Virus record (IMG/VR): IMGVR_UViG_3300045988_160394 | Span: 32,001 to 96,000 of that record | Strand: one strand, 5' to 3' | Length of the DNA stretch: 64,000 bases | From: a virus | In this document: piece by piece, positions 21,234 to 51,773 of the stretch | How the letters are laid out: each line of letters opens with the position of its first letter | Position numbering within the stretch: position 1 is the first letter of the stretch | The notes under the pieces: generated by a model | What the model was told of the DNA's origin: nothing | The model's database searches: none | Seen by the model: only the letters and a program-made list of their open reading frames with translations | Position numbers and translations under genes: made by a program

Positions 21234-22466
21234 ATGAGCCGTAAATATTGTACAAGAAACGCTTGTGAAAACGAAAAATTAATAGATAAATGTACATGTT
21301 GTTTCGATTGTGATCTTATTGGAGAATGTGAAGCAGAAGTTAAATGTATCATAAGAACAAAGGACAATTATATGGATTGTCCTTTTATAGGAAAAAGAAT
21401 TAATGAAGGGGAGACTACTATGAATAAAATAAATGATTTACCTAAGGTTGGAGTATTCTTTGGTAAGATGATACCACCTCACAGAGGACATTTAACAGCT
21501 ATTATTAATGCAGCTACTAGATGTCAAAAACTTTATGTTGTAGTAAGTGATAATAAACATACAACAGAAGAAATATGCAGAGAATCAGGTATAAAAAATA
21601 TACCTGTAGAATTAAGAATTCAATGGCTATGTCAAGAGCTTCAAGACTTAGATCATATTAAAGTTGTTGCTCTTGATGAAACACATATACCTGCATATCC
21701 TAATGGATGGGATGAATGGTGTGATTTAATGAGAAAGGCTGTTAAAGAAGATATTGATACTTTCTTTTGTGGAGAAGAAGAATATTGTAAGCAATTAAAA
21801 GAGCATTTCCCAGGTTCAGATGTAATTCTATTTGATCCACAAAGAAATACTTATAATATAAGTGCTACTACAATAAGAACTAATCCTCAAAAACATTGGG
21901 ATCATATATTAGGACCTGCTAGACCATTCTTTGCTAAGAGAGTATTAATAGCAGGGACTGAAAGTACAGGGAAGACTACAATGGTTAAGTACTTAGCTAA
22001 ATTATATAATACTTCATGGTCAGAAGAAGTAGGAAGATATTATGCTTCTAAATTCCTAGGAGGAAATGAAGAAATTTTTACTGATGAAGATTTTACTAGA
22101 ATAGCATATCAACAAATAGAACAAGATTACGCAGCTCTTAGAAGTTGTAATAGAGTTTGTTTCTTTGATACTGATCCAACAGTTACTCAATACTATTCTA
22201 CTTTATATATGGGGCATAAAAACCTTGAAGTAGAATCAGCTATTAATCCAACTAAATATGATATTGTTATATTATTAAAACCAGATGTTGAATGGGTTGA
22301 TGATGGACAAAGATTAAATGGTGATCAAGAAAAAAGAGAAGAATTACACAATAGATTAAAATATATGTATCTTGAAAGAGGTTTTAAGAACGTTGTTGAA
22401 GTATCTGGAGATTATAATGAAAGATTAACAGCTATTATAAATATTGTTGATGATTTATTAAAGTAA
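21234..22466 (+). CDS. nadR: NadR-type bifunctional NMN adenylyltransferase / ribosylnicotinamide kinase with Cys-rich N-terminal extension
   Basis: GKMIPPHRGH (HxGH nucleotidyltransferase), ISATTIR, then Walker A GTESTGKTT kinase domain. Confidence 0.8.
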   Translation: MSRKYCTRNACENEKLIDKCTCCFDCDLIGECEAEVKCIIRTKDNYMDCPFIGKRINEGETTMNKINDLPKVGVFFGKMIPPHRGHLTAIINAATRCQKLYVVVSDNKHTTEEICRESGIKNIPVELRIQWLCQELQDLDHIKVVALDETHIPAYPNGWDEWCDLMRKAVKEDIDTFFCGEEEYCKQLKEHFPGSDVILFDPQRNTYNISATTIRTNPQKHWDHILGPARPFFAKRVLIAGTESTGKTTMVKYLAKLYNTSWSEEVGRYYASKFLGGNEEIFTDEDFTRIAYQQIEQDYAALRSCNRVCFFDTDPTVTQYYSTLYMGHKNLEVESAINPTKYDIVILLKPDVEWVDDGQRLNGDQEKREELHNRLKYMYLERGFKNVVEVSGDYNERLTAIINIVDDLLK

Positions 22467-25838: not shown

Positions 25839-26420
25839 ATGAATAAATTAAAGTCTTTAGAACAGCAAACTAATAATAGATATTTAAACGTTTATAAAGC
25901 TAAATATGAAAATAAAGAAAAGAAAACTGAATATGAATATTATATAGCTACTAGAAGAAAAAGAGAAGATATGGCTTGTGTAGCTAAAGATAAAAATAAA
26001 ACAGATGCTGTTATGATAGTTCCAACTGATCCAGTTACTGACAACATGTATTTAATAAAACAGTTTAGACCTGCTGTTAATGATTATGTAATAGAATTCC
26101 CTGCTGGTTTAGTTGATCCTGGTGAAACAGAAGAGCAAACAGTAGCGAGAGAATTATATGAAGAAACTGGATTAATAGCTGAAATGATAAACTTAACCGT
26201 ACCTTCATCATATACTTCTGTTGGAATGACAGATGAAAAAGTAGCAGTATATACAGCTATTGTTTCAGGTAAACCTAATACAAATAATCTTATGGATAAT
26301 GAAGACATAGAAATATTAACTATTAAATCTTCTGATTTAAATGATGTTATTAATGGAGTATATGGTGAAGTATCTATAAAGACAAGAATAATATTAACGT
26401 TTTTAAATCTAACATGTTAA
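25839..26420 (+). CDS. Nudix hydrolase, ADP-ribose pyrophosphatase-like
   Basis: Nudix box GLVDPGETEEQTVARELYEETGL. Confidence 0.8.
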   Translation: MNKLKSLEQQTNNRYLNVYKAKYENKEKKTEYEYYIATRRKREDMACVAKDKNKTDAVMIVPTDPVTDNMYLIKQFRPAVNDYVIEFPAGLVDPGETEEQTVARELYEETGLIAEMINLTVPSSYTSVGMTDEKVAVYTAIVSGKPNTNNLMDNEDIEILTIKSSDLNDVINGVYGEVSIKTRIILTFLNLTC

Positions 26421-27526: not shown

Positions 27527-28258
27527 ATGGATAAGTTTCAGATTAAGATATTAAACCCAGAAGAAGTAAAGACATTATTTAAACGTTGAGGGACGTTCGC
27601 ATGTAAATGTTATGACACTCCTGCTAAATATGCAGAAAGAGTTGGTAAATCATGCTTACAATCAGGACACTTTTCAGGATCAAGAAGTATATATATAGAA
27701 ATAGATGTTAGTAATGTACCTAGAGCTCTTGTAGATCAAATAATAAGAAGAGAACAAGGATGCGTTAAAAACGTTGAATCTGGTAGATATGTAGATTTCT
27801 CAGATTTTGATTATTATACTTCACCATTAATAGCTAATGATCCAATAGCTAAAGAGATATATGATGAACACATGAAAGCTACTAGAGAAGTTTATTCTTT
27901 ATTAGTTAAAAGATTAAATGAAAAAGGGATAACTGGTGAAAGAGCCTTTGAAGCAGCTAGAGGAGTTGCTCCTATGAACTATAGAACAGGTATGGTTCTA
28001 GGATTAACATTAGAAGCTTTAATAGGCTTATGTCATGAAAGATTATGTAGTAGAACTCAAGAACATTCTAGACATTTAATCAAGATGATAAGAGATGAGG
28101 TTCTAAAGCTTATACCTGAGTTAGAGCCATATTTAGTAGTGAAATGTGATTATCTACAATGGTGTCCAGAAGGAAGTAAATGTTGTGGTAGAAAACCAAC
28201 TAGAAAAGAATTCTTAGAATTTATTGATTCTAATAAAGTTAAAGGGAGTGTTAAGTAA
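27527..28258 (+). CDS. thyX: flavin-dependent thymidylate synthase, in-frame TGA at 27587
   Basis: ATG 27527 behind aggagg; RREQGCVKNVESGRY resembles ThyX RHRxxSxxxxSxRY; in frame with track ORF 27872..28258. Confidence 0.75.
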
Positions 28259-30888
28259 TGGCAAAGAATATAGTATTTAATTCAGATGCAAGAGAAAAGA
28301 TAAGACAAGGTGTCAATGTATTAGGAGATGCTGTTAGAGCAACTATGGGACCTAAAGGTAGAAATGCTATCTTAGAAAGAACACCTGGTTCTCCATTAAT
28401 AACTAACGATGGAGTTACTATAGCTAAAGAAATAGAATTAATAGACAATATAGAAAATATGGGAGCTCAAATAGTAAAAGAAGCAGCTATTAAGACTAAT
28501 GATGAGGCAGGAGATGGGCCACAACCTTTATATTCTAAAATATTAACACCTAATGGTTGGACTACTATGGGTGAAATAAAAAAAGGTGATGTTATATGTG
28601 GTACAAATAATACTCATCAAACAGTATTAGAAGTTTATCCTAAAGGGAAAAAAGAATTGGTTATAATTACATTCTCTAATGGCAAACAAGTTCATTGCTG
28701 TCAAGATCATTTATGGACTATAAATACAAGCTATGGAAAAAGAAAAACCATGACAACAAGAGAAATGATAAACAAAGGCGTATACAAACTTAATAGCCAA
28801 GGTGATAAAAGATATAATTTCTATACACCTTCTAACACAGTAGAGTTTCAAGAAAAAGAATTACCGATACATCCATACCTTTTAGGTGCTCTATTAGGAG
28901 ATGGCTCATTAACTGGGACAGGGAATATAGAATTAAGCTTAGGATATAATAAAGAGCACATAATAGAAAAAATATATCCGATATTACCTGACAATATACA
29001 AATATCAATACAGGATTGTTTAGACAAGAATTGTTATAGAGTCAAATTTTCAAAAATAGATAAAACTAATCCTATTTCTATGGAAAGTTTACTTAATGAA
29101 TTAAATCTATTAGGAACTAATAGTAAAAATAAATTTATACCTGAAATTTATTTATATAATTCAGTTGAAAATAGAACACAATTGTTAAATGGTTTAATAG
29201 ATACAGATGGATATAACAATAATAGAGGATTGTTTGAATTTTCTACTGTTAGCGATAAACTTAATGAATCCTTCACAGAATTAGTTAATAGCTTAGGAAT
29301 TCAAACATCATATACTTTACACAAAAGAGATAATGACTTATTATCTTATTCTTTCAATCCTATTCATAGACATACTCAATTAAAAGGTTATAAATATGGA
29401 ATAAAAATAGTAGATATTGAAGTTGTTAATAAACTAGAAGAAATGAAATGTATAAAAGTATCAAATCAAGATAATTTATATATAACAGATGGATATATAG
29501 TAACACACAACACTACTACAGCTACAGTTTTAGCACAAGCAATCATAAATGAAGGTTATAATGCTCTTTCTACAACTGAAGATGTTTCAGAAGAAGAAAA
29601 GAATCAATCTATATACAAAGGTGCCAATCCTGTTTTATTAAAGAAAGGTATAGAAATAGCTACTAAAATAGCAATAGATGAATTAAAAGCTATAGCTAAG
29701 CCTATAGAAACAGATGAAGAAATAAAACAAATAGCAACTATATCTTCTGCTAGTGATGATATAGGAGAATTAATATCTCAAGCTATTAAAAGAGTAGGTA
29801 AAGACGGTATAATTACTACTACTGAATCACATACTATAGAAACTACTTTAGAAGTTAAAGAAGGTTTTGAATTTGACAGAGGTTTTTATTCACCTTACTT
29901 TGCTGATGATCAAGAAAAAATAGAATCTGTTTTTTATAATCCATTAATACTTGTAAGTGATCAAAAGATGAGAACTCAACAAGAAATAGTACCTTTATTA
30001 GAACAAGTGTTAAAAGTTCAAAGACCTATAGTGTTTATAGTTGATGAAATAGAACAAATCGTATTCTCTTCTTTATTAAGAAATAAAATGAATGGGAATA
30101 TGGATGTAGCAGTAATAAAAGCACCTGGATTTGGGGCAAAAAGAAAAGAGCTATTACAAGATATAGCTATTTTAACAGGAGCAACTTTTATATCTGAAGA
30201 ATACGCTTTAACTATGTCAGAAGCTAGAATAAACTTATTAGGTTCATGCGAGTCTATAAAGATAACTAAAAATAATACTATTATATTTAATGGTTCTGGA
30301 GATAAAGAAGAAATAAATAAAAGAGCAGAACACATTAAGAATAGTATTAATGCTGATAATATATCAGAATACGATAAAGAAAAACTAGAAGAAAGATTAG
30401 CTAAAATAACAGGTGGTATAGCTACTATAAAAATAGGAGCTGCTACAGAGCCTGAATTAAAAGAGAAAAAGTTAAGAATAGAAGATGCTATTAATGCCAC
30501 TAAAGCAGCTATAGAAGAAGGAATAGTTGCAGGTGGTGGAACAGCTTTATTTAATCTTTCACCAGTAATATTAGAAAAGACTAAAAACTTAGTAGGAGAT
30601 GTATATCAAGGAGCATTATGTGTAGCATTAGCTGTTAATTCTCCAATAATACAAATAGCTATGAATGCAGGTGTAAATGCTACTAAGGTTATGGAAAATG
30701 TTTTAAAGACAGCTAAAGAAAAAAGCAATCCTAATATAGGATATGATGCTTATAATGATGCTTATGTTGATATGTTAGAAGTAGGAATAATAGATCCTGT
30801 AAAAGTTACTAGAAATGCATTACAAAATGCAGCTTCAGTAGCTGCTATACTGTTAACAACAGATGTAACTATAAGCAACTTTCAATAA
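28258..30888 (+). CDS. groL: GroEL chaperonin interrupted by an intein (545-aa extein)
   Basis: N-terminal AKNIVFN...GPKGRN...AGDG | intein | TTTATVLAQAI...; C-terminal GroEL equatorial domain. Confidence 0.9.
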   Translation: MAKNIVFNSDAREKIRQGVNVLGDAVRATMGPKGRNAILERTPGSPLITNDGVTIAKEIELIDNIENMGAQIVKEAAIKTNDEAGDGPQPLYSKILTPNGWTTMGEIKKGDVICGTNNTHQTVLEVYPKGKKELVIITFSNGKQVHCCQDHLWTINTSYGKRKTMTTREMINKGVYKLNSQGDKRYNFYTPSNTVEFQEKELPIHPYLLGALLGDGSLTGTGNIELSLGYNKEHIIEKIYPILPDNIQISIQDCLDKNCYRVKFSKIDKTNPISMESLLNELNLLGTNSKNKFIPEIYLYNSVENRTQLLNGLIDTDGYNNNRGLFEFSTVSDKLNESFTELVNSLGIQTSYTLHKRDNDLLSYSFNPIHRHTQLKGYKYGIKIVDIEVVNKLEEMKCIKVSNQDNLYITDGYIVTHNTTTATVLAQAIINEGYNALSTTEDVSEEEKNQSIYKGANPVLLKKGIEIATKIAIDELKAIAKPIETDEEIKQIATISSASDDIGELISQAIKRVGKDGIITTTESHTIETTLEVKEGFEFDRGFYSPYFADDQEKIESVFYNPLILVSDQKMRTQQEIVPLLEQVLKVQRPIVFIVDEIEQIVFSSLLRNKMNGNMDVAVIKAPGFGAKRKELLQDIAILTGATFISEEYALTMSEARINLLGSCESIKITKNNTIIFNGSGDKEEINKRAEHIKNSINADNISEYDKEKLEERLAKITGGIATIKIGAATEPELKEKKLRIEDAINATKAAIEEGIVAGGGTALFNLSPVILEKTKNLVGDVYQGALCVALAVNSPIIQIAMNAGVNATKVMENVLKTAKEKSNPNIGYDAYNDAYVDMLEVGIIDPVKVTRNALQNAASVAAILLTTDVTISNFQ
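28519..29511 (+). mobile_element. 331-aa LAGLIDADG intein in GroEL GDG/TTT ATP-binding motif, class-3-like (WCT)
   Basis: Starts Pro (PQPLYSKILTPNGW), block B CQDHLW, LLGALLGDGS and LLNGLIDTDGY, block F KCIKV, ends IVTHN followed by Thr. Confidence 0.85.
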
Positions 30889-34044: not shown

Positions 34045-34073
34045 TTTACAAACATAAATAAATTTGATATATT
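34045..34073 (+). promoter_or_regulatory. sigma-70-like promoter candidate for the tRNA/ribozyme cluster
   Basis: TTTACA - 17 nt - TATATT, about 55 nt upstream of first tRNA; such matches are frequent in AT-rich DNA. Confidence 0.3.
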
Positions 34074-34128
34074 ATTTGTGGGACAAGTTTTAACAAATAA
34101 TATCGTAAATAAATATCAAATTTAAATT

Positions 34129-34247
34129 GCGGGTTTCACGTAGTTTGGTTAGCGTTCTGGTCTTCAAAACCAGTGACAGGCACCATGTTCGACATGCTTT
34201 AATGTTTTGGTTATAAGTCTGCGGGGGTTCGAATCCCTCAACCCGTG
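34129..34247 (+). tRNA. tRNA with anticodon UCA (UGA-decoding, Trp-like anticodon arm), 49-nt insertion in variable region, no encoded CCA
   Basis: Acceptor gcgggtt/aacccgt, D arm acgt/gcgt, anticodon arm ctggt-cttcaaa-accag (anticodon 34164..34166), T arm ggggg-ttcgaat-ccctc. Confidence 0.6.
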
Positions 34248-34317
34248 GTCTCTCATTTAGTAAGCCTCCACGTTGGCGAGAGACGGAAACAAAATTACTA
34301 TTTTGGCTAATTACTAA
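34248..34317 (+). ncRNA. HDV-like (theta-type) self-cleaving ribozyme abutting the tRNA 3' end
   Basis: P1 gtctctc/gagagac, P2 ttagtaa/ttactaa, P3 gcc/ggc with L3 tccacgtt, GG for P1.1, short P4 caaaa/ttttg, J4/2 gCtaa. Confidence 0.8.
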
Positions 34318-34339
34318 GAAATCTTTATGGAGGGTTTAT

Positions 34340-34966
34340 ATGGAAGGTTATATTTATAAAATAACTAATAGCTTAAATAATAAATGTTATATAGGCAAAA
34401 CATATAAATCTATCCAACAAAGATGGAAAGAACATTTAAAATCCTGTAAAAAAGGAGAATGTTCTAATAGACCTTTATACAAGGCTATTAATAAATACGG
34501 TGTTGGCAACTTTTCTATAGAAGAATTAGGAAAGTTTGAAGAAGGTATTTTAGAAGAAAAAGAAATATATTATATAGATAAATATGATTCATATAATAAT
34601 GGCTATAACGCTACATTAGGTGGAGATGGGAAAAGATATTTCCAATATACCGATAAAGAAGTTATAGATGAATACCTTAAAACTAAAAACTTAAATATAA
34701 CATCAAAATACTTCAATTGTGATGTAGATACTATAAAAAGAATATTAGAATCTAATAGTATCGAAACATTAACAGCTAAAGAATCTATAAAAAATACTTA
34801 TGGAAGAACAGTATTAAAATATTCTTTAGATGAAGAGTTAATAGCTAAATATGAAACAGTTTCTGACGCAGCTAAAGAATTTGATAAAGGCTCTCCTGGT
34901 TCAATATCAAGATGTTGCAGAGGATTAAGAAAGACATATAAAGGTTTCATATGGAGATATTCTTAG
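34340..34966 (+). CDS. GIY-YIG homing endonuclease (I-TevI-like)
   Basis: GYIYKITN...CYIGKT...RWKEH...YNATLGGDG. Confidence 0.85.
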   Translation: MEGYIYKITNSLNNKCYIGKTYKSIQQRWKEHLKSCKKGECSNRPLYKAINKYGVGNFSIEELGKFEEGILEEKEIYYIDKYDSYNNGYNATLGGDGKRYFQYTDKEVIDEYLKTKNLNITSKYFNCDVDTIKRILESNSIETLTAKESIKNTYGRTVLKYSLDEELIAKYETVSDAAKEFDKGSPGSISRCCRGLRKTYKGFIWRYS

Positions 34967-35044
34967 TAATAAAGACTTTTTCATACATACATTTCTCATA
35001 ATTGAGTAATATAGGTCACAAGTTGAAATATATTTGTGACTAGC

Positions 35045-35122
35045 GTCTTTCAACTAACAAGCCTCCTCGTGGCGAAAGATGGAAACAGATAGAAGTAAAA
35101 TAATTATCTGGCTAATTGTTAG
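35045..35122 (+). ncRNA. second HDV-like ribozyme copy, just upstream of tRNA-Gln
   Basis: P1 gtctttc/gaaagat (G.U at cleavage site), P2 ctaacaa/ttgttag, P3 gcc/ggc, L3 tcctcgt, P4 agata/tatct, J4/2 ggCtaa; stems co-vary with copy 1. Confidence 0.75.
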
Positions 35123-35129
35123 AAAATAT

Positions 35130-35204
35130 TGCGGTATAGCCAAGTGGAAAGGCAGCTGACTTTGACTCAGCTATGCGTAGGTTCAATTCCTACTACCGCT
35201 GCCA
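35130..35204 (+). tRNA. tRNA-Gln (UUG), CCA encoded
   Basis: Cloverleaf folded by hand; anticodon loop cttTTGac; U1.U72 mismatch. Confidence 0.8.
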
Positions 35205-35208
35205 ATAA

Positions 35209-35285
35209 TGTGGTGTAGCTCAATCGGTTAGAGCATACGTCTGATAAGCGTAAGGTTACAAGTTCAATTCTTGTCACCACAACCA
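35209..35285 (+). tRNA. tRNA-Ile (GAU), CCA encoded
   Basis: Acceptor tgtggtg/caccaca, loop ctGATaa. Confidence 0.9.
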
Positions 35286-35341
35286 CAACTAGATTAAAAT
35301 ATTCTAGTAAAAATATATGGTGTATATATTTGCGATGTAAA

Positions 35342-35434
35342 TAAGATAAAGCTCAGCCAGGTTAGAGCACATGGGTTATTATGAGGCATTGTAATAATAC
35401 TTTGGAGTCGTGGGTTCAAATCCCACTATCTTAT
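35342..35434 (+). tRNA. tRNA-like element with canonical acceptor, D and T arms but 18 extra nt in the anticodon region
   Basis: Acceptor taagata/tatctta, D gctc/gagc, T gtggg/cccac; anticodon not assignable. Confidence 0.4.
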
Positions 35435-35443
35435 TTATATTAA

Positions 35444-35520
35444 TGCGGTATAGCTTAGTTGGTAAAAGCCCTCGATTCATAACCGAGAGATCACAAGTTC
35501 GAATCTTGTTACCGCAACCA
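35444..35520 (+). tRNA. tRNA (CAU): elongator Met or Ile2, CCA encoded
   Basis: Acceptor tgcggta/taccgca, loop ttCATaa; no initiator features. Confidence 0.85.
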
Positions 35521-35530
35521 TTATATTAAA

Positions 35531-35625
35531 GGTTGATTCTCCAGCCTGGAGGTGAGAAGTTGATAAAACACTCACTAAACGCCATAAAAGGTAATCACGA
35601 ATGTGAGCGTGTGATTAACTATTTT
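35531..35625 (+). ncRNA. orphan third copy of the tracrRNA-like scaffold, between two tRNAs
   Basis: ggttgattctccagcct..gtgag..ctcactaaacgcc..gcgtgt collinear with 19721 and 20085 copies. Confidence 0.45.
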
Positions 35626-35663
35626 ATATAGTAGAAGAGTCCCTTATCTTCCTCTATTGTTAT

Positions 35664-35738
35664 GGGAATATAGTACAAAGGTTAGTACAATCGGCTGTTA
35701 ACCGATAGATCCTGGTTCGATTCCATGTATTCCCGCCA
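35664..35738 (+). tRNA. tRNA-Asn (GUU), CCA encoded
   Basis: Acceptor gggaata/tattccc, loop ctGTTaa; one T-stem mismatch. Confidence 0.8.
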
Positions 35739-37286: not shown

Positions 37287-37395
37287 ATTTAAATTTTAAT
37301 AAAAAACAAAACTACTTATTCCCATATATGAAAATATATAGTATACTTAGTTTATAAGTTTTAAAAAAATTAAAAAATAAAAAGGTGAGTGTATT

Positions 37396-38172
37396 ATGGA
37401 TAGTGGAAAAATGTTTTTATGCTATGTACCTAAAAAGCATATTACAGATGCTTTAATAGATCAGGTAGACTGATTAATTGAAAACGAATATAGCAATTAT
37501 AATGATTGCGTTATTATAGATAATATAAGTAAGGGATATAGAATATATCCTAATGATTTAAAAGCTATGATGTCTAGATGTAGTTATAGTGAATTATTAG
37601 ATAATATATATGATAATATAAATAAAAATAAAACATCAATTATTTTAAATGATTTTGATATAGATATAGATGATTTAAAAGATGTTTATTCAGAAATTAT
37701 AAAAGAAAAGAATATAACCATTATTATTTTTAATAGCATTAGAACTGATAATGAAGATAAACTTATGATTAAAATTAAAAAAGATTTAAAAGAATTAAAA
37801 GAAGATAAGTGATCTGAATTAAAATCAGAAATCCTTGAACATATTGATGAATATATGGATAGATTTGATTCAAATAATGAAATTTTTGATCCAGAAGAGG
37901 ATAGTGACGATGAAGGGTTACAAGAATTATTAGATTTAATTAGCAAAGAATTATCAGAAGAATGTGAAGAAGATGAAGAATCTTATAATAGATTTGCTTT
38001 AAAAAGTATTAAAGAAAGTTATACTTATCAAAAGAAACAGGATGTATTATCAGTTTCTTTAACTACTGGTAACGACTTAATATTATCTGATGGAGAAGAA
38101 CAAATATTAATAAAAAATAATATGATTAATCATTTGTTAGAAACAATAGAACATATTAGAGGGAAAAAATAA
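37396..38172 (+). CDS. hypothetical acidic protein, two in-frame TGA (37471, 37810)
   Basis: ATG 37396 in frame with track ORFs 37567 and 37855. Confidence 0.55.
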
Positions 38173-43783: not shown

Positions 43784-43851
43784 TTATATAAGAGAGTTAT
43801 TGCTTTTAATAGCTCTCTTGTATTAACATTTTTGTTATGGAGGAGATTTGT

Positions 43852-45804
43852 ATGGAAAAGAAAAAATTGACTTTAAAATCTAAAAAAACACAAGTAGAGA
43901 AAAGTCAAATACCTGATGTTCCTGTATCAGATGTAACAATAGATACACTTTCTGATAGAGATCATGTTAGATTAAGAAGAGGAATGTACCTTCCTAATAT
44001 GAATTATTGTGCATATGAAATTATGGATAACTCAGTTGATGAATTTATGGCTGGTGTTTGTAAAAACATATTATTACAAATAGAACCAGATAAGAAAATG
44101 ATTATTCAAGATGACGGTAGAGGAGTTCCTTTACAACCATCTAAACAAGATCCTAATAAGCCAATGGTTCAAGTTGCATTAGGAGAATTAAAATCAGGTG
44201 GTAAATTCAATCAAAAGAAAGATAATGCTGTTAAGACAGGTGGTTTACATGGAACAGGAGCTTCAGCAGTTAACTTTACTTGTGATGAGTTCAAAGCTGT
44301 TGTTACTCAAAATGGAGAACAATATGAAATAGCATGGACTAAAGGATTATTAACTGAACCACTTAAACATATAGGTTCTGCTCCAGAAGGATTAGAACAT
44401 GGTACATTAATCGAACTTAAACCTGATATGGGAATATGGGGCGAAAGTGATTATGATTTAAAAGCTATCGAAAAGAGAGCTGAACAATTAACATTTTTAA
44501 ATGCAGGATTAAATATTATTTTAGACATAGATTATAACAATGTCAAAATAGAAAAAGAAATATGTAATCCAGAAGGATTACCAGCTTATATATTAAAACT
44601 TTCTGAAAAGAAAGAATCTATTGTAGATCCAATTAGTATAAGTGGTAAATTTAATCATCCTAAATTAGGTGATGTAGATGTAGAAATAGCTTTATCTTAT
44701 AACACTGGTTATAATGAAGAAATATATGCATTTACTAATAATATCCCTAATCCATTAGGAGGACATCATTTAACAGGCTTTAAAGAAGGATTATATAAAT
44801 CAATAAACAATTATTATATAGATAATACAAAAGGTAAAACTGTTGATTTAGAATCATCTGATTGTAGAGAAGGATTAATAGCAGTAATATCTGTTAAACT
44901 AGCCGATCCAGTTTTCGATGGACAAGGTAAAGCTAAATTAGATATGCCAGCTATAAGATCTATAGTTAAAGATTCTGTAATTGAAATGATGGATGATTAT
45001 TTAGATAAGAATCCTAATCAAGCTAAATTAATAGTTGCTAAAGCATTACAAGCTCAATTAACTAGAGAATCTGTAAGAAAAGCTAGAGAGACAACTAGAG
45101 CAGGTAAAAACGCTTTTACAGGAAAACCTCCTAAATTAGCAGGATGTACTAGTAAAAATCCAGAAGAATGTGAATTATGGATAGTTGAAGGAGATTCAGC
45201 TGCTGGTACTGCAAAGAAAGCTAGAGATAAGAAAACTCAAGCTATTTTACCTATATTCGGTAAGATAAATAATCCTTATAATATAACATTAGAAGAGTGT
45301 TATAAATCTCCTAAGCTAAAAGATGCTATAACAGCATTTGGTACAGATATAGGAGAGAACTTTAATATAGAAAACTTAAATTATCATAAAATAATAATAA
45401 TGTCAGATGCCGATGTCGATGGACTTCATATTCAAACATTATGGATGGCATTTATGTATAAATTCTTTAGACCAATCGTAGAAGCTGGTCATTTATATCT
45501 ATCTTGTCCACCTTTATTTAAAGTTACTAAAGGTAAGAAAGAAAAATTCTGTTATACTGTAGAAGAAAAAGATCAAGCTATAGCTGAATTTGGTGGTGGA
45601 GAAGCACAAAGATATAAAGGATTAGGAGAAATGAATGAAAAAGAATTAGGCCCATCTACTATGGATATTGATACTAGAGTACTAATTCAAGTTACTTGTG
45701 AAGATGCAGAATCTGCTGAATCAATATTAGATATATGTATGGGTAATGACGCATCATTAAGAAAAGACTTATTATTAAGTGATGTCGATATGGATTTAGT
45801 ATAG
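43852..45804 (+). CDS. gyrB: type IIA topoisomerase subunit B (GyrB/ParE-like)
   Basis: EIMDNSVDE, GGLHGTGASAVN, TOPRIM EGDSAAG, IMSDADVDGLHI, PPLFKV. Confidence 0.85.
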   Translation: MEKKKLTLKSKKTQVEKSQIPDVPVSDVTIDTLSDRDHVRLRRGMYLPNMNYCAYEIMDNSVDEFMAGVCKNILLQIEPDKKMIIQDDGRGVPLQPSKQDPNKPMVQVALGELKSGGKFNQKKDNAVKTGGLHGTGASAVNFTCDEFKAVVTQNGEQYEIAWTKGLLTEPLKHIGSAPEGLEHGTLIELKPDMGIWGESDYDLKAIEKRAEQLTFLNAGLNIILDIDYNNVKIEKEICNPEGLPAYILKLSEKKESIVDPISISGKFNHPKLGDVDVEIALSYNTGYNEEIYAFTNNIPNPLGGHHLTGFKEGLYKSINNYYIDNTKGKTVDLESSDCREGLIAVISVKLADPVFDGQGKAKLDMPAIRSIVKDSVIEMMDDYLDKNPNQAKLIVAKALQAQLTRESVRKARETTRAGKNAFTGKPPKLAGCTSKNPEECELWIVEGDSAAGTAKKARDKKTQAILPIFGKINNPYNITLEECYKSPKLKDAITAFGTDIGENFNIENLNYHKIIIMSDADVDGLHIQTLWMAFMYKFFRPIVEAGHLYLSCPPLFKVTKGKKEKFCYTVEEKDQAIAEFGGGEAQRYKGLGEMNEKELGPSTMDIDTRVLIQVTCEDAESAESILDICMGNDASLRKDLLLSDVDMDLV

Positions 45805-45816
45805 GAGGTAATTGAT

Positions 45817-46050
45817 ATGGCAGAAAGAATTATACAAAAAGAATTAGCAGAAGCTATGGCTCCAAGATATAAATCTTATGGTTTATATGTTGTTAAAGAT
45901 AGAGCTTTACCTAGCTTATATTCTGGTTGTAAACCCGTTCTTCAAAGATCATTGTACTCAATGTTTGAAATGGGATTAAAAAGTACAGCTAAGATAAAAA
46001 AATCTGCTAGAGTTGTTGGAGATGTAATAGGTAAATATCATCCACACGGT
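45817..46050 (+). CDS. gyrA: type IIA topoisomerase subunit A, exon 1
   Basis: Ends ...VIGKYHPHG; conserved continuation D.SVYDTIVR resumes at 47313. Confidence 0.8.
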
Positions 46051-47312
46051 TGTTGAAAAATAGTATATATTTTGCAATAATTTATTTTTCATTCATATAG
46101 TAAATATATAAACAGAATTTATTATAAGAATGGAGAAATAATTTTATGAAAAAAACAGAATTTAATGAAACACAAATAAAAGATATAGTTGAAAGATATA
46201 AAAATGGAGAAGCTATTATGAACATTAGAAAAGATTATAATGTTAGTCATAGTACTATTAATAGAGTATTAAAAGAAAATAACGTTGCAATTAGAGGTAA
46301 TAGGAAACATTTTTATAACGAAGATATTTTAAAAAAAATAAATACAGCTGAAAAAGCTTATTGAATAGGATTTATTACAGCAGATGGTTATATTAATGAA
46401 GATAGAAATTTTATGAGAATAAAGCTTCAAGAAAAAGATAAAGATCATTTATATAAATTTATGAAATTTATCGGAGGAGATGAAGGTATGATAAAATATG
46501 AATTTCATAATATAACTGGTAATAAACAATGATATATAGAAGTTAGTGGTAAGACTTTTATTAAGTCGTTAGTAGAATTAGGAATAAGACAGAAAAAAAG
46601 TTCTAATGAGCAATGGTGTAATAAGATTCCAGAAAAATATATAAAAGATTATATAAGAGGAATAATAGATGGAGATGGGCATATATCTTTGGAAAATAAA
46701 AGATTTGACATATGTAATTCAGAATCGTTATTAATACAATTGCAAAATTTCCTAATAAAAGAATATAATACTTCAAAAACAAAAATATATGATCATTGTA
46801 ATACAAAAAGATTGTTTGTAACAGTTAATGCTACAGATATATTGTTTGATTTATATTATAAAAAGTGTGTATCATTAGATAGAAAATATAAAACTGTTAA
46901 AATATTAAAGCAATTAATAGAACTATAATTGCCGTGTATAAATAGGGTAAAATCGGTTCCGACAGCTTAAACAAAAAGATGGATGGTTTAAGTATGGTGG
47001 TATATAAAGAAGAGAGGCTTAATTGCTAATACCGAGGTAAAGATAAGTTTAAAACCTTATGCTCACCGTAACGCATAGACATTGAAACTTTATTAAATTA
47101 AAGAATATAATATGTCCAAGAGTGCCCTACACAGAATTGAAAAATATTCTCCTAGGTCAAGTAATAGCTTGATGTGAAAATGTATGCTAGGCTGGACTAG
47201 AATTAACTAGTCGATGAGGTTAGTTATTAACCAAATGAGTGAAAACTCCAGAGTCAGGTGTAGGAATAGACCTACTATTAATAGATAAAAAGCCCTGAGA
47301 TAATAACATTCG
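46051..47312 (+). mobile_element. group I-type intron in gyrA carrying a LAGLIDADG gene
   Basis: Exon 1 ends in U, insert ends in G, joining restores HPHG|DVSVYDTIVR in frame; about 385 nt ORF-free structured 3' part. Confidence 0.65.
46146..46928 (+). CDS. LAGLIDADG homing endonuclease with N-terminal HTH; two in-frame TGA (46362, 46530)
   Basis: AY-W-IGFITADGY and IRGIIDGDGH motifs. Confidence 0.8.
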
Positions 47313-49550
47313 GATGTATCTGTATATGATACTATAGTTAGAGCTTCTCAAAAGTGGAATATGAGATATCCAATCGTAGATATGCCATCAAATAATGGTT
47401 CTATAGATGGAGATGGAGCAGCTGCTATGAGATATACAGAATGTAGACTAACAGCTTATGGCGAAAAGTTATTAGAAGGTATAAATAAAGAAACAGTTGA
47501 TTTTAAACCTAACTATGATAACTCAGAAACAGAACCTGTTGAACTACCATGTATGCTACCTAACTTATTAGCTAATGGAGTAGAAGGTATAGCAGTTGGT
47601 ATGGCTGCGAATATACCTCCTCATAATTTAACAGAGCTATTAACAGCTGCTAGAAGAATAATAAGTGATGCTAAAGAAGAAAAAGAAACTTCTTTAGAAG
47701 ATTTAATGACTATAATAAAAGGACCAGATTTCCCTGGCGGTGGTATTATAGTTAACAAGAAAAATCTTAAAACAGCTTTTGCTACTGGTAAAGGTAGAAT
47801 AACTTTAAGAGGTAAAACTGATATAGTAGAAGATAAAAAAGGACATAAAACAATAAATATAACTGAAGTCCCTTATCAAGTTAAACCTATTGAATTAGTT
47901 AATAAAATATATACTCTTGCTAGAGATGGGAAAATAGAAGGTATTAAAGAAGTTGAAGATGAATCAGATAAGAACGGTATGTGTTTATCTGTAAAACTTA
48001 AAAAATCAGCTAATCCAACTTTAGTATTAAATAATTTATACAAGTTAACAGATTTACAAAAGAATATAAACTATAATATGAATGCATTAATAGGTGATAC
48101 TCCTGTTGATGTAACATTATTAGATTATTTAAATGAGTATTTATCTAACTCATTAAATATCTTATTAAGAAGAACTAACTTTGATCGTGATAAAGATATG
48201 AAAAGAATATCAAACTTAGAGGTTATATTCTTATATCTTGAAAACAAAGAAGATATAGTTGCAATAATTGCTTCATCAGATAATCCAGAAGAAGAATTAA
48301 AAGAAAAATATGAATTAGCTGATGAACAAATTAGCTTTTTATTAAATACTAGATTAGGTTCTTTAAAGAAAGCTAGTATTTCTAAATATCAAGAAGAATA
48401 TGACCAGTTAAATGAAAATGTAACTGAATATACAAAGATATTAGAAGATGAAGGATATGCTTTAGATGTTCTTTCTAAAGAATTATCTGAATTACAAGAA
48501 CAATTTGGAGATGAAAGAAGAACTCAAATTGAATTAGACGTTAATGGAGATATTGCAGAGGAAGATTTAATTCCAGATGAACCATTAGTTGTTACAATTA
48601 CATCTGATGGCTTAATAAAAGCTGTTGATGAAAAAGAATATAGTACTCAAAAGAGAGGTGGAAAAGGAACTAAAGCAGCATCTACTAAAGATGATGAAAT
48701 AGTAACTGATCTATTCTCTATTAATAGCAAAGATGATATCTTATTTATGACTGATAAAGGAAGATGTCATAAGTTAAAAGGATATTCTATACCTAAAGTA
48801 GGTAAGAATGCTAAAGGAAGACATATTAATAACTTTATTAAGTTAGAAGAAGGCGAAAATATAGTATCTGTTATGCCCGTAAAAATTAAAGATGAAGCAG
48901 AACATTCTATACTATTTGTAACAGCTTTAGGACAAATTAAGAGATTATCTATAAGCGAATTAGGTTCTAGATATACAGCTATTAAAGTTCTAAAGATAAA
49001 AGATGGAGATGGTCTTCAAACTTGTTTAAAAGTTAATGAAGGTCAAGATGTTATGCTTTGTACAGCAAAAGGTCAATCAATAAGATTTACTGTATCAACA
49101 GAAACTAAAAAGCCAATTAGACCTCAAGGAAGAACTGCTTCTGGAGTTATAGGTATAAAAGTAGCTGAAGATGACTATGTTATCGGAGCAACTATCATAG
49201 ATGATGAATCTAATATCTTAACTTTAACTAGCAATGGTTTAAGTAAGCAAACAAAAGGTGCTGCTTGGGAAGCTAAGCAAAGAGGTGGAAAAGGAATACT
49301 TTGTCATAAAATAACAGAGAAAACAGGAGACTTAGTTTCAGTATTATCTGTTAAAGAAGATGATGAATTATTTGTTGGAACTGAATCTGGTAAAATAATC
49401 AGATTAAAAGCTAATTCTATAGCAACTTCAGGAAGATCTGCTATAGGAAGTAAAGCTATTAAGTTAGATGAAGGTGATTATGCATTTACAGCATCTTTAG
49501 CTCCAGCTAACAATGAAGAAGTTGAATTAGAAACTACAGAAGAGGCGTAA
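47313..49550 (+). CDS. gyrA: type IIA topoisomerase subunit A, exon 2
   Basis: DVSVYDTIVRASQ..., GDGAAAMRYTE (catalytic Tyr), C-terminal beta-pinwheel repeats. Confidence 0.85.
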   Translation, partial: DVSVYDTIVRASQKWNMRYPIVDMPSNNGSIDGDGAAAMRYTECRLTAYGEKLLEGINKETVDFKPNYDNSETEPVELPCMLPNLLANGVEGIAVGMAANIPPHNLTELLTAARRIISDAKEEKETSLEDLMTIIKGPDFPGGGIIVNKKNLKTAFATGKGRITLRGKTDIVEDKKGHKTINITEVPYQVKPIELVNKIYTLARDGKIEGIKEVEDESDKNGMCLSVKLKKSANPTLVLNNLYKLTDLQKNINYNMNALIGDTPVDVTLLDYLNEYLSNSLNILLRRTNFDRDKDMKRISNLEVIFLYLENKEDIVAIIASSDNPEEELKEKYELADEQISFLLNTRLGSLKKASISKYQEEYDQLNENVTEYTKILEDEGYALDVLSKELSELQEQFGDERRTQIELDVNGDIAEEDLIPDEPLVVTITSDGLIKAVDEKEYSTQKRGGKGTKAASTKDDEIVTDLFSINSKDDILFMTDKGRCHKLKGYSIPKVGKNAKGRHINNFIKLEEGENIVSVMPVKIKDEAEHSILFVTALGQIKRLSISELGSRYTAIKVLKIKDGDGLQTCLKVNEGQDVMLCTAKGQSIRFTVSTETKKPIRPQGRTASGVIGIKVAEDDYVIGATIIDDESNILTLTSNGLSKQTKGAAWEAKQRGGKGILCHKITEKTGDLVSVLSVKEDDELFVGTESGKIIRLKANSIATSGRSAIGSKAIKLDEGDYAFTASLAPANNEEVELETTEEA

Positions 49551-51128: not shown

Positions 51129-51773
51129 ATGACAATGAGTTTAGCAGAGAAAAGAAAGAAAATGTCCCAAATGATGGGGAAAATAAATGATAAGGTAGGT
51201 AAACAAGTAATAGGATTTGCATCAGATCCTGTTATGAAAGATAGATTAACTATCCAATGGATACCTATGCCATCATTAAGAGTTAATGAAGTAACTGGTG
51301 GTGGAATACCTAAAGGTAAGATAAGTGTTGTAGCTGGTGATTCAGATTCAGGTAAAACATCTTTAATGTTAGAAACTATAGGGTTAAACATGAAGAATAA
51401 TCCTGACTTTATGGCTTTATGGTTAGAATCAGAAGAATCTCTAGAGTTAGAAGCTTTAGAAAATGTTTTTGGTATTGATTTAGATAGATTCGTAGTAATA
51501 TATCTAGATAGAGATGGAGCAGCAGAAGTAGCTTTAGATAGATTAGAAGCTGCTTTAGGTATGGGTGTATTCGATATGTGTGTAATAAACTCATTAAAAT
51601 GTTTAACACCATCTACTGAATTTGAAAAAGCTATGGGTGAAGCTACTATAGGTATACAAGCTAGAATGAATGGTAAACTTATGAGAAAGATGACTACGTT
51701 AATAGCAGAACACGGTTGTGCTTTTGTATTAATAAACCATCTTACTACTGAGATAGGTAAAATGCATGGAGAT
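51129..51773 (+). CDS. recA: RecA-family recombinase, exon 1
   Basis: Walker A GDSDSGKTS, LINHLTTEIGKMHGD then interruption. Confidence 0.75.

What the first reader, a model, noticed from the sequence alone, without database searches (positions are those of the whole stretch)
34248..34317. HDV-like self-cleaving ribozyme fused to the 3' end of the suppressor tRNA
Directly after the discriminator base (g34247) the sequence folds into the nested double pseudoknot of HDV-family ribozymes:
- P1 gtctctc (34248-54) with gagagac (34278-84)
- P2 ttagtaa (34257-63) with ttactaa (34311-17)
- P3 gcc/ggc around L3 tccacgtt
- GG (34285-86) able to form P1.1 with the CC of L3
- a short P4, caaaa/ttttg
- J4/2 gCtaa with the putative catalytic C at 34307

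The core string GCCUCCACGUUGGCGAGAGACGGAAAC parallels the HDV genomic core GCCUCCUCGCUGGCGCCGGCUGGGCAAC. HDV-type ribozymes cleave at their own 5' edge. Cleavage here would therefore release the tRNA exactly at position 73, ready for CCA addition.

From memory, small HDV-like ('theta') ribozymes next to tRNAs have been reported in recoded gut phages. This looks like a member of that group, attached to the recoding tRNA itself.
Basis: partly seen in the sequence, partly recalled or inferred. Interest (0 to 1): 0.85.

Follow-up and report, generated by a model that had tools for sequence, protein, structure and literature searches.

The report
Self-cleaving ribozyme between tRNA and homing gene
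A jumbo phage carries a real HDV-type self-cleaving RNA directly after its UGA-reading tRNA; comparison with relatives suggests this RNA arrived with a selfish homing-endonuclease gene and cuts the tRNA free of it.

Summary
Bases 34248-34317 form a complete HDV-like double pseudoknot that starts one base after discriminator G34247 of a UCA-anticodon tRNA.

- **Model scores.** A covariance model built only from unrelated viral sequences scores it at 43.6 bits (E 2.7e-6 for the whole window). The next non-ribozyme hit scores 12 bits.
- **Second copy.** A paralog (rz2) lies at 35045-35122. Its P1 and P2 differ from rz1 only by compensatory changes, and a hand comparison of P4 gives the same result.
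- **Not a strict theta ribozyme.** It works like the published theta ribozymes but does not fit their descriptor. It has a 6-bp P4 and an 8-nt L3, and it follows an opal rather than an amber suppressor.
- **Not "ready for CCA".** Cleavage would leave a 2',3'-cyclic phosphate. The phage encodes a kinase-phosphoesterase-RNA ligase that could heal it.
- **New context.** In two relatives the same tRNA is joined, via one C, to the rz2 type. In this phage rz1 plus a GIY-YIG homing endonuclease gene sit between the tRNA and rz2.
- **Independent lineages.** In two unrelated gut-phage lineages a theta ribozyme plus a related endonuclease gene is a presence/absence insertion at a tRNA 3' end (14 and 9 empty sites).

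Best reading: a ribozyme plus homing-gene cassette. Self-cleavage itself is untested.

The parts
34045..34073 (+). Sigma-70-like promoter TTTACA-17-TATATT with TG before the -10. It is the likely start of the transcription unit that holds the tRNA, both ribozymes, the homing gene and the tRNA cluster.
   Evidence: Consensus scan, 10 of 12 matches. This is a pattern match only.
34129..34247 (+). tRNA with anticodon UCA (loop CUUCAAA), a 7-bp acceptor stem, discriminator G73 and no encoded CCA. It is 119 nt long because of a 46-nt extra arm.
   Evidence: Rfam tRNA 47.9 bits; ARAGORN misses it. It differs at no more than 3 of 119 positions in five related contigs (L271, L272, L273, L275, L276), whose neighbouring protein is 52-99% identical.
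34175..34220 (+). 46-nt insertion in the variable region, predicted to form a long branched extra arm.
   Evidence: Insert in the Rfam alignment and centroid fold. The only changes in relatives fall in its hairpin loop.
34248..34317 (+). HDV-like ribozyme rz1 (the finding). Predicted cleavage is between G34247 and G34248. Putative catalytic C at 34307.
   Evidence: It is 70/70 identical in L271, whose flanking ORFs are 87-89% identical in DNA.
34329..34334 (+). GGAGGG ribosome-binding site of the homing endonuclease gene, 11 nt after the ribozyme ends.
   Evidence: Read from the sequence.
34340..34966 (+). Free-standing GIY-YIG homing endonuclease gene (208 aa).
   Evidence: Pfam GIY-YIG 37.4 bits against a cut-off of 22.6, plus a weak NUMOD1 match. 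It is absent from relatives L271, L272 and L273.
35015..35040 (+). Hairpin gtcacaa/ttgtgac, 4 nt before the rz2 cleavage site. It would be the 3' end structure of the released endonuclease mRNA.
   Evidence: Read from the sequence. No tRNA model hit here at E up to 10. Conserved in L271.
35045..35122 (+). Second HDV-like ribozyme rz2. P4 is cagata/tatctg, putative catalytic C at 35112. It ends 7 nt before tRNA-Gln.
   Evidence: Descriptor scan; RF02682 36.0 bits; R1 42.2 bits, E 4.9e-6. In L272 and L273 this type follows the UCA tRNA directly after a single C.
35130..35738 (+). tRNA cluster Gln(UUG), Ile(GAU), Met(CAU), Asn(GUU). All four encode CCA and none has a 3' ribozyme.
   Evidence: ARAGORN and Rfam. 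The CCA ends were read.
46146..46928 (+). LAGLIDADG endonuclease ORF with in-frame TGA at 46362 and 46530. It is the evidence that UGA is read as Trp.
   Evidence: The first TGA falls in a column that is W in all 17 homologs; the second is W in the 4 closest.
57093..59285 (+). Kinase (AAA_33) + metallophosphoesterase + Rnl1-type RNA ligase. It is a candidate enzyme for healing the 2',3'-cyclic phosphate and 5'-OH ends that the ribozymes make.
   Evidence: Pfam. The ligase domain matches tRNA ligase and T4 RNA ligase 1 structures. The link to the ribozymes is an inference.

Best explanation
rz1 is a functional HDV-family self-cleaving ribozyme, transcribed with the UCA tRNA from the promoter at about 34045.

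**Proposed mechanism**
- It cuts between G34247 and G34248.
- This frees the tRNA at position 73 with a 2',3'-cyclic phosphate.
- It also creates the 5'-OH end of an mRNA that begins with the folded ribozyme and encodes the GIY-YIG homing endonuclease.
- rz2 cuts at 35044/35045. That trims the 3' end of this mRNA just after a hairpin and separates it from the downstream tRNAs.
- The tRNA must then be dephosphorylated, possibly by the phage kinase-phosphoesterase-ligase protein, and receive CCA. After that it can read UGA as Trp.

**Proposed origin**
rz1 and the endonuclease gene lie in one inserted segment, between the tRNA and the rz2-type ribozyme that abuts it in relatives. The ribozyme makes the insertion harmless to the tRNA and lets the selfish gene use the tRNA promoter.

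**Status of each step**
- Shown here: the fold, its statistical significance, its conservation, its position, the indel states, and the presence/absence insertions in other lineages.
- Inferred: cleavage itself, end healing, co-transcription and the benefit to the cassette.
For: **Fold and significance**
- establish the fold and exclude chance.
- rz1, rz2 and the L273 copy pair in 100% of the cells counted across all five helices (only 2 pairs of P4 could be counted). P1 and P2 hold 4 double (compensatory) changes. Slid controls pair at 31-57%.
- Across 53 distinct relatives, 92.6% of cells pair. The P2 pseudoknot, which the model does not fit, pairs at 85% and shows double changes in all 7 pairs.

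**Conservation**
- tRNA + rz1 + rz2 are 266/267 identical between the window and L271.
- The upstream intergenic region is 84% identical and the flanking ORFs 87-89%.

**Locus states**
- L272 and L273: tRNA-C-rz2.
- L271: tRNA-rz1-137 nt-rz2.
- Window, L269, L275, L276: tRNA-rz1-endonuclease gene-rz2.

**Same layout elsewhere: tRNA | ribozyme | about 20-65 nt | endonuclease gene**
- L280, L281, L282.
- L022.
- L041 and L162.

**Empty sites**
- 14 of 15 contigs of the L280 lineage have the same tRNA-Met with no ribozyme and no endonuclease gene.
- 9 metagenome contigs have the L282 tRNA-Leu with neither.
- The occupied alleles carry 16-nt and 12-nt repeats of the tRNA 3' end after the endonuclease gene.
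- The L282 ribozyme matches the reverse primer of the published theta-9 construct, which the authors showed to cleave in vitro.

**tRNA-specific support**
- Only the UCA tRNA of the cluster lacks an encoded CCA.
- An end-healing enzyme is encoded at 57093-59285.
Against: - No cleavage assay exists for this sequence.
- Both Rfam hits are below the family's gathering score (31.4 and 36.0 against 44).
- State A has a ribozyme next to the tRNA with no endonuclease gene, so a ribozyme can be resident without one.
- L271 has rz1 without the gene. I could not tell whether that is a deletion or the state before insertion: its filler sequence shows no significant similarity to the ORF.
- Four other close GIY-YIG homologs (43-49% identity) sit in tRNA clusters with no HDV-like ribozyme. 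The ribozyme is therefore not obligatory for this endonuclease subfamily.
- Several tRNA-adjacent ribozymes (L123, L133, L203) are followed by no ORF longer than 55 aa. In L203 further tRNA genes lie nearby.
- No clear target-site repeat flanks the window insertion.
Confidence: 0.68

Rival explanations
1. The ribozyme is an intrinsic maturation or timing device of the suppressor tRNA (the published theta-ribozyme model), and the homing endonuclease gene is an incidental later arrival. Cleavage, followed by phosphate removal and CCA addition, would control when UGA starts to be read as Trp.
For: - In relatives without the endonuclease gene the tRNA still abuts a ribozyme (L272, L273).
- It is the only tRNA of the cluster without an encoded CCA and the only one with a 3' ribozyme.
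- After the insertion the tRNA again abuts a ribozyme, which suggests selection for adjacency.
- The published correlation of theta ribozymes with suppressor tRNAs.
Against: - rz1 lies inside the inserted segment.
- In two other lineages the tRNA has no ribozyme at all unless the endonuclease gene is present.
- Recoding in this window is minimal: 2 well-supported in-frame TGA, both in one homing endonuclease ORF.
- This rival is not exclusive of the best explanation.
Confidence: 0.3
2. The endonuclease targets conserved tRNA or ribozyme DNA. rz1 would then have reached this locus by co-conversion of flanking sequence during homing from another tRNA-ribozyme locus, rather than as functional cargo of the cassette.
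For: - The closest GIY-YIG relatives all sit in tRNA clusters, with or without ribozymes.
- rz1 and rz2 are diverged paralogs rather than a recent duplication.
Against: The empty sites of the L280 and L282 lineages have no ribozyme that could serve as a target. The ribozyme always lies on the 5' side, next to the tRNA. That position is what a function in separating tRNA from mRNA predicts.
Confidence: 0.2
3. The two ribozymes excise the segment 34248-35044 as an RNA with a 5'-OH and a 2',3'-cyclic phosphate, which the phage RNA ligase system joins into a circle or to another RNA.
For: Two same-strand HDV-like ribozymes flank the segment. A kinase-phosphoesterase-Rnl1-type ligase is encoded in the window. 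In L271 the two ribozymes flank only 137 nt of non-coding RNA.
Against: No complementarity was seen that would bring the two ends together. There is no evidence for circles. The ligase has the more ordinary reading of tRNA repair.
Confidence: 0.07
4. The element is an inactive relic or a chance resemblance.
For: Both Rfam scores are below the gathering threshold, and no assay exists.
Against: - All helices are perfect and the catalytic C and P1.1 are present.
- There were 0 hits in 300 shuffles.
- The independent model gives E 2.7e-6.
- The sequence is 100% conserved where flanks have diverged by 11-16%.
- Changes relative to rz2 are compensatory.
Confidence: 0.05

Closest known systems
Theta ribozymes: minimal HDV-like ribozymes at the 3' ends of gut-phage tRNAs (Kienbeck et al. 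2024, PMC10879173)
   Same: - HDV-like core with the same conserved letters: GCC-UCC-NCG-GGC, GG, CUAA.
- The cleavage site abuts a tRNA that lacks an encoded CCA.
- The host is a tailed-phage-type genome.
- Association with a stop-codon suppressor tRNA.
- Genomes with RNA ligase genes, an enrichment the paper reports.
   Different: - A real 6-bp P4 inside a 20-nt segment, where about 120 published theta sequences have 5-8 nt.
- L3 is 8 nt instead of 7.
- The tRNA is an opal (UCA) suppressor, whereas 99.7% of published cases are amber and none lay in code-4 genomes.
- The paper and its supplements do not mention homing endonucleases.
Rfam RF02682, HDV ribozyme from Faecalibacterium prausnitzii (a P4-bearing bacterial HDV-like ribozyme)
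   Same: The P1-P3-P4 layout and the GGCUAA J4/2 are the same.
   Different: Scores are 31.4 and 36.0 bits, below the gathering score of 44. J1/2 is shorter, and the context is different (tRNA 3' end).
Phage T4 SegB, a GIY-YIG homing endonuclease within the T4 tRNA gene region (recalled from memory, not retrieved here)
   Same: A free-standing GIY-YIG homing endonuclease gene sitting inside a phage tRNA cluster. One INPHARED relative of the window endonuclease is annotated 'putative SegB homing endonuclease'.
   Different: To my knowledge no ribozyme is associated with segB. Here the gene is preceded by a self-cleaving ribozyme that abuts the tRNA.
HDV-like ribozymes at the 5' ends of R2 and L1Tc retrotransposon RNAs
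   Same: An HDV-like ribozyme releases the 5' end of a selfish element's RNA from a host co-transcript and stays at the front of that RNA (abstracts listed: PMC3414825, PMC3185411).
   Different: Those are eukaryotic RNA-mediated retroelements. This is a DNA-level homing endonuclease cassette in a phage, and the upstream product (a tRNA) is itself functional.
Group I introns and inteins that carry homing endonuclease genes
   Same: The logic is the same: a self-processing element makes the insertion of an endonuclease gene into an important gene harmless. The window itself holds an intein in GroEL and a LAGLIDADG gene between gyrase ORFs.
   Different: Nothing is spliced or religated. A single cut separates the two products.

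Membership tests
HDV-like self-cleaving ribozymes | Nested double pseudoknot: P1, P1.1, P2, P3 and P4 in the canonical order | tested here: met
   All helices are present with no mismatch. Pairing is 100% across rz1, rz2 and L273, against 31-57% when partners are slid.
HDV-like self-cleaving ribozymes | Catalytic cytosine at the first position of J4/2 | tested here: met
   C34307 in G-CUAA aligns to the consensus GGCUAA in both models. rz2 has C35112.
HDV-like self-cleaving ribozymes | Covariance-model score at or above Rfam's curated threshold | tested here: not met
   RF02682 gives 31.4 bits (rz1) and 36.0 bits (rz2) against a gathering score of 44. No other Rfam HDV family scored better.
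HDV-like self-cleaving ribozymes | Mg-dependent self-cleavage at the 5' edge of P1, abolished by C-to-U in J4/2 | not testable with these tools
   This needs in vitro transcription of 34100-34330 and of the C34307U mutant.
Theta ribozymes (Kienbeck 2024 descriptor) | Minimal P4: the segment between P1.1 and J4/2 is only 5-8 nt | tested here: not met
   rz1 has 20 nt with a 6-bp helix and rz2 has 30 nt. About 120 published sequences all have 5-8 nt, and the paper says L4 was shortened when the motif was defined. The descriptor figure itself could not be read.
Theta ribozymes (Kienbeck 2024 descriptor) | L3 of 7 nt (U, NC, NCGN) | tested here: not met
   rz1 L3 is UCCACGUU, 8 nt. rz2 has 7 nt and meets this feature. 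An 8-nt L3 appears only in the authors' first, looser motif list.
Theta ribozymes (Kienbeck 2024 descriptor) | P1 of 6-7 bp starting with G, J1/2 of 1-3 nt, 7-bp P2, 3-bp P3, J4/2 of 4-5 nt starting with C | tested here: met
   GTCTCTC | AT | TTAGTAA | GCC ... CTAA | TTACTAA.
Theta ribozymes (Kienbeck 2024 descriptor) | Cleavage site within 5 nt of a tRNA 3' end | tested here: met
   The distance to the discriminator is 0 nt for rz1 and 1 nt for the rz2 type in L272 and L273. In the window, rz2 is not next to any tRNA 3' end.
Trp-type opal suppressor tRNA (UGA read as Trp) | tRNA fold with anticodon UCA | tested here: met
   Rfam tRNA 47.9 bits with anticodon loop CUUCAAA.
Trp-type opal suppressor tRNA (UGA read as Trp) | In-frame UGA at positions where homologs have Trp | tested here: met
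   TGA at 46362 falls in a column that is W in 17 of 17 homologs. TGA at 46530 is W in the 4 closest homologs. Caveat: TGG to TGA is also the commonest nonsense change, and only one ORF in this window shows it.
Trp-type opal suppressor tRNA (UGA read as Trp) | Short (class I) variable loop, as in known tRNA-Trp | tested here: not met
   A 46-nt extra arm (34175-34220) is present and conserved in relatives. Charging identity cannot be tested here.
tRNA-Sec (considered because of the UCA anticodon and long extra arm) | 13 bp in acceptor plus T stems (8+5 in bacteria) | tested here: not met
   The acceptor stem is 7 bp and the T stem 5 bp. The D-stem was not compared. Viral tRNAs with the same anticodon arm that do look Sec-like have a different acceptor and encode CCA.
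Free-standing GIY-YIG homing endonuclease genes | GIY-YIG catalytic domain plus a DNA-binding module | tested here: met
   Pfam GIY-YIG 37.4 bits (cut-off 22.6). NUMOD1 scores 17.2 bits, below its cut-off.
Free-standing GIY-YIG homing endonuclease genes | Presence/absence polymorphism among close relatives at one site | tested here: met
   Present in the window, L269, L275 and L276; absent in L271, L272 and L273. Endonuclease activity and homing were not tested.

The most novel reading that the evidence does not exclude
HDV-like (including theta) ribozymes next to phage tRNAs are, at least in part, cargo of mobile homing-endonuclease cassettes.

- A ribozyme plus a GIY-YIG (or possibly HNH-like) gene inserts exactly at a tRNA 3' end.
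- The ribozyme restores a clean tRNA end and launches the endonuclease mRNA from the tRNA promoter.
- This would be a third way, beside introns and inteins, for a homing gene to invade an essential gene harmlessly.
- It would explain why one theta ribozyme sequence is found next to tRNAs of many isotypes.
- Solo ribozymes such as rz2 in state A would be what remains after the endonuclease gene decays.
Probability: 0.45. Interest if true: 0.85.

Novelty: new variant of a known kind. Interest (0 to 1): 0.68.

Why it matters
- **Family range.** tRNA-adjacent HDV-like ribozymes were described only recently, only in minimal form, and almost only with amber suppressors. This case extends them to a P4-bearing form, to a jumbo phage, and to an opal (UGA to Trp) suppressor with an unusual 46-nt extra arm.
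- **Function.** The comparative data suggest that such ribozymes can travel with homing endonuclease genes. In two lineages the same tRNA has no ribozyme unless the endonuclease gene is present, and one of those ribozymes is a published, in-vitro-active theta ribozyme. If this is general, the question of what theta ribozymes are for shifts from tRNA regulation towards selfish-element biology.
- **Testability.** The idea gives a simple prediction that can be checked on existing genome collections.
- **Practical use.** It offers compact natural tRNA-ribozyme-ORF units that process themselves.

Tried and rejected
- **Exact long patterns.** Searching viral contigs with the rz1 core found nothing. 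The 14-mer core alone gave mostly chance hits.
- **Relatives via the neighbour protein.** IMG/VR yielded none. Relatives had to be fetched through the protein database.
- **MAFFT alignments.** Alignments of mixed ribozymes were out of register in P1 and J1/2 (A1 and A3) and were not used for counting.
- **tRNA or tRNA remnant upstream of rz2.** No tRNA model hit at E up to 10. The resemblance of the hairpin to the T arms of the neighbouring tRNAs is by eye only.
- **Pervasive code 4 in the window.** Rejected. Code-11 ORFs already tile the window. Stops are TAA 51, TAG 11, TGA 3. Only two candidate ORFs have in-frame TGA, and the second (37381-38172) is low-complexity and undecidable.
- **tRNA-Sec.** Rejected on stem lengths.
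- **Ribozyme obligatory for this endonuclease subfamily.** Rejected. Four homologs in tRNA clusters have no HDV-like or other Rfam ribozyme. Eight more distant homologs sit between protein genes and have none.
- **L271 as a decayed endonuclease gene.** Not supported. The local alignment score is 13, against a shuffle mean of 13.25.
- **HNH ORF after the third L041 ribozyme.** Pfam gave no hit at E 0.001. The HNH motif there is by eye only.
- **CCA-adding enzyme.** None was found among the 40 ORFs scanned, which include all of 200 aa or longer except 60344-60997 and 63109-63831. The genome is at least 263 kb, so this says little.
Full report
**1.

- P1: 34248-54 with 34278-84.
- P2: 34257-63 with 34311-17.
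- P3: 34264-66 with 34275-77, around an 8-nt L3.
- P1.1: GG 34285-86 facing CC 34268-69.
- P4: actually 6 bp, 34290-95 with 34300-05.
- J4/2: CTAA, with C at 34307.

The Rfam tRNA model ends at G34247 (47.9 bits), so the first ribozyme base directly follows the discriminator.

Chance does not explain this:
- The conserved core alone occurs 0.01 times per dinucleotide-preserving shuffle of the window, against two real copies.
- The full descriptor never matched in 300 shuffles.
- Rfam's HDV-F-prausnitzii model matches end to end at exactly these coordinates. The score of 31.4 bits is below the curated 44.
- A covariance model built from 16 P4-bearing HDV-like sequences of unrelated viral contigs, with no window sequence, scores the element at 43.6 bits. 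That is E 2.7e-6 for the whole window on both strands with filters off.
- The only other strong hit is a second ribozyme. Everything else scores 12 bits or less.

**2. A second ribozyme and the family around it**

My descriptor scan found a paralog, rz2, at 35045-35122. It scores 36.0 bits with RF02682 and 42.2 bits with my model.

- rz1, rz2 and the rz2 copy of relative L273 pair in 100% of the cells of all five helices. Only 2 pairs of P4 could be counted.
- P1 and P2 show four double (compensatory) changes.
- With partners slid by 1-3 columns only 31-57% pair.
- By hand, P4 also differs by three compensatory pairs: caaaat/attttg against cagata/tatctg.

A pattern that demanded no base pairing recovered more than 100 viral loci. 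Over 53 distinct sequences, 92.6% of cells pair. The P2 pseudoknot, which the model does not fit, pairs at 85% and shows double changes in all seven pairs. P4-bearing HDV-like ribozymes are therefore common in viral contigs, including several of 200-390 kb. Some abut tRNAs exactly: L041 three times, L123, L133 twice, and L162.

**3. Relation to theta ribozymes**

The published theta ribozymes (PMC10879173) are minimal HDV-like ribozymes whose cleavage site lies within 5 nt of a phage tRNA 3' end. Four were shown to cleave in vitro.

In about 120 published sequences the segment between P1.1 and J4/2 is 5-8 nt and L3 is 7 nt. The authors say they shortened L4 when refining the motif.

- rz1 has 20 nt with a real helix there, and an 8-nt L3.
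- rz2 has 30 nt there.

The element works like a theta ribozyme but fails two features of that descriptor and would not have been found by it.

The tRNA partner is also unusual. Of suppressor tRNAs next to theta ribozymes, 99.7% are amber, and none lay in a code-4 genome.

**4. The tRNA**

Structure and conservation:
- It has a UCA anticodon in a CUUCAAA loop, a 7-bp acceptor stem and G73.
- In relatives position 1 is A, giving an A1-U72 pair.
- A 46-nt extra arm occupies 34175-34220. ARAGORN misses the tRNA.
- The 119-nt sequence differs at no more than three positions in five related contigs, whose neighbouring protein is 52-99% identical. The two internal changes fall in a hairpin loop of the extra arm.

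Evidence on recoding:
- UGA is not broadly recoded in this window.
- A LAGLIDADG endonuclease ORF (46146-46928) has two in-frame TGA. The first falls in a column that is W in all 17 homologs; the second is W in the four closest.
- TGA ends only 3 of 65 ORFs.
- I read this as a Trp-type opal suppressor. The caveat is that TGG to TGA is also the commonest nonsense change.

The four ordinary tRNAs of the cluster all encode CCA and have no ribozyme. The UCA tRNA alone lacks CCA.

**5. Context**

- The window is part of a phage contig of at least 263 kb with 27% G+C. All genes are on one strand.
- It encodes GroEL with an intein, ClpP and ClpX, gyrase, RecA and an NAD module.
- A promoter-like site (34045-73) precedes the tRNA and a terminator-like site follows the cluster at 35840.
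- Between rz1 and rz2 lies a GIY-YIG homing endonuclease gene (34340-34966). Its ribosome-binding site starts 11 nt after rz1.
- A hairpin lies 4 nt before the rz2 cut site.
- ORF 57093-59285 joins a polynucleotide-kinase-type P-loop, a metallophosphoesterase and an Rnl1-type RNA ligase. Those activities can heal the 2',3'-cyclic phosphate and 5'-OH ends that HDV-type cleavage makes.

**6. Relatives show that rz1 sits in an insertion**

Contigs fetched through a neighbouring protein show three states:

| State | Contigs | Layout |
|---|---|---|
| A | L272, L273 | the same tRNA, one C, then the rz2-type ribozyme |
| B | L271 | tRNA, rz1, 137 nt, rz2 |
| C | window, L269, L275, L276 | tRNA, rz1, endonuclease gene, about 80 nt, rz2 |

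So rz1, with or without the gene, separates the tRNA from the ribozyme it abuts in state A. After the insertion the tRNA again abuts a ribozyme.

Between the window and L271, tRNA + rz1 + rz2 are 266/267 identical. The upstream intergenic region is 84% identical and the flanking ORFs 87-89%.

I could not decide whether state B is a deletion of the gene or a precursor.

**7. The same module occurs elsewhere, as a presence/absence insertion**

The three closest relatives of the endonuclease in the phage collection are human faecal scaffolds at 34-38% identity. All show tRNA | HDV-like ribozyme | about 25 nt | GIY-YIG gene.
- These ribozymes are minimal theta types.
- The L280 ribozyme appears in the published lists.
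- The L282 ribozyme matches the reverse primer of the theta-9 construct, which the authors found active in vitro.

Other loci with this layout:
- L022: tRNA-Met | minimal ribozyme | GIY-YIG gene.
- L041 and L162: a ribozyme after tRNA-Asp is followed at about 65 nt by an ORF. The L041 ORF has weak GIY-YIG and NUMOD3 hits. The L162 ORF resembles it by eye but gave no Pfam hit.
- L041, third ribozyme: followed by an ORF with an HNH-like motif seen by eye only.

In L280 and L282 the last 16 and 12 nt of the tRNA are repeated immediately after the endonuclease gene.

The decisive tests were searches for the junction of tRNA 3' end and downstream flank:
- It found 15 viral contigs of the L280 lineage. 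Fourteen have the same tRNA-Met with no ribozyme and no endonuclease gene.
- A junction specific for the empty site of the L282 lineage found nine gut metagenome contigs with the tRNA-Leu. None has a ribozyme core within 1.5 kb.

In those lineages the ribozyme arrives together with the endonuclease gene.

**8. Limits of that idea**

- Four other close homologs (43-49% identity), picked by rank and contig length, all sit in tRNA clusters about 100-130 nt after a tRNA. None has an HDV-like or other Rfam ribozyme.
- Eight more distant homologs sit between protein genes and have none.
- The endonuclease subfamily is therefore tRNA-cluster resident, and the ribozyme is frequent but not obligatory.
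- State A shows a ribozyme without an endonuclease gene.
- Several tRNA-adjacent ribozymes are followed by no sizeable ORF.
- The theta paper and its supplements do not mention homing endonucleases. Three full-text searches found no paper linking the two. The library is incomplete.

**9. Mechanism proposed**

1. Transcription from about 34045 gives one precursor.
2. rz1 cuts after G34247. This releases the tRNA with a cyclic phosphate and creates an mRNA that starts with the folded ribozyme and a 5'-OH.
3. rz2 cuts after C35044. This ends that mRNA behind a hairpin and leaves rz2 as the leader of tRNA-Gln, which RNase P would remove.
4. The tRNA end is healed, and CCA is added.

Shown here: the folds, their significance, conservation, positions, the indel states, and the presence/absence in other lineages. 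Inferred: cleavage, co-transcription, healing, and the selective logic.

**10. Verdict**

This is a genuine HDV-like ribozyme. It works like a theta ribozyme but is a P4-bearing variant on an opal suppressor tRNA. It most likely forms the 5' part of a ribozyme plus homing-endonuclease insertion. I rate it a new variant of a known kind. The cassette reading, if general, would be of considerably higher interest.

Noticed in passing
window 35341-35436 (+): tRNA-like element with normal acceptor, D and T arms, but with the anticodon arm replaced by an extended hairpin of about 12 bp (fold z-score -3.6). ARAGORN and Rfam at gathering threshold both miss it. By eye it is also present in relative L272.
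   Followed up: partly
window 34175-34220 (+): 46-nt extra arm inside the UCA tRNA, far longer than any class II variable arm I know. It is conserved in all relatives, and its role (identity element, protein binding site) is unknown.
   Followed up: partly
window 35202-35204, 35283-35285, 35518-35520, 35736-35738: The four ordinary tRNAs of the cluster (Gln, Ile, Met, Asn) all encode their CCA ends. Only the suppressor tRNA does not.
   Followed up: yes
window 18296-19636 (+) and 19889-20307 (-): TnpB/Cas12f-like ORF (OrfB_IS605 plus Cas12f1-like TNB domain), followed by at least three CRISPR-DR3-type repeats on the opposite strand, in a phage genome.
   Followed up: no
window 43837-49550 (+): gyrB, then a 79-aa ORF, then the LAGLIDADG gene with two in-frame TGA, then gyrA starting at Pfam profile position 66. 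This looks like an intron with a homing gene inside gyrA. The intron itself was not tested.
   Followed up: partly
window 28258-30888 (+): GroEL interrupted by an intein with a LAGLIDADG/Hom_end domain. Relatives L271 and L272 have a 545-aa GroEL without it, and L273 has one with it.
   Followed up: partly
window 51129-53528 (+): RecA appears split: residues matching RecA at 51129-51791 and a RecA C-terminal domain at 52923-53528, with ORF 51795-52238 between them. This may be another mobile insertion.
   Followed up: no
window 9202-11238, 12767-13465, 21234-22466, 25839-26420: NAD-related gene set: NAD-dependent DNA ligase, NMN transporter, a NadR-like protein and a NUDIX hydrolase. This resembles what has been reported for gut jumbo phages.
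   Followed up: no
window 35521-35663 (+): Non-coding stretch between tRNA-Met and tRNA-Asn that, by eye, is largely conserved in L272 (about 3958-4090). No Rfam match; function unknown.
   Followed up: no
window 37381-38172 (+): Two adjacent ORFs would join into one 263-codon frame if the TGA at 37810 were read through. The sequence is low-complexity, so no homology test was possible.
   Followed up: partly
L282 1501-2132 and L281 1501-2130: The GIY-YIG genes behind the theta ribozymes contain several in-frame TAG codons. These homing genes therefore sit in amber-recoded phages and depend on suppression themselves.
   Followed up: no
L293 2634-2832: Group I intron (Rfam 61 bits, above threshold) inside another phage tRNA cluster, close to a related GIY-YIG gene.
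   Followed up: no
L315 about 2471-2545 and L317 about 2591-2665: In two empty-site contigs of the L282 lineage the 5' half of the tRNA-Leu is replaced by unrelated sequence. This suggests further rearrangement at this tRNA.
   Followed up: no
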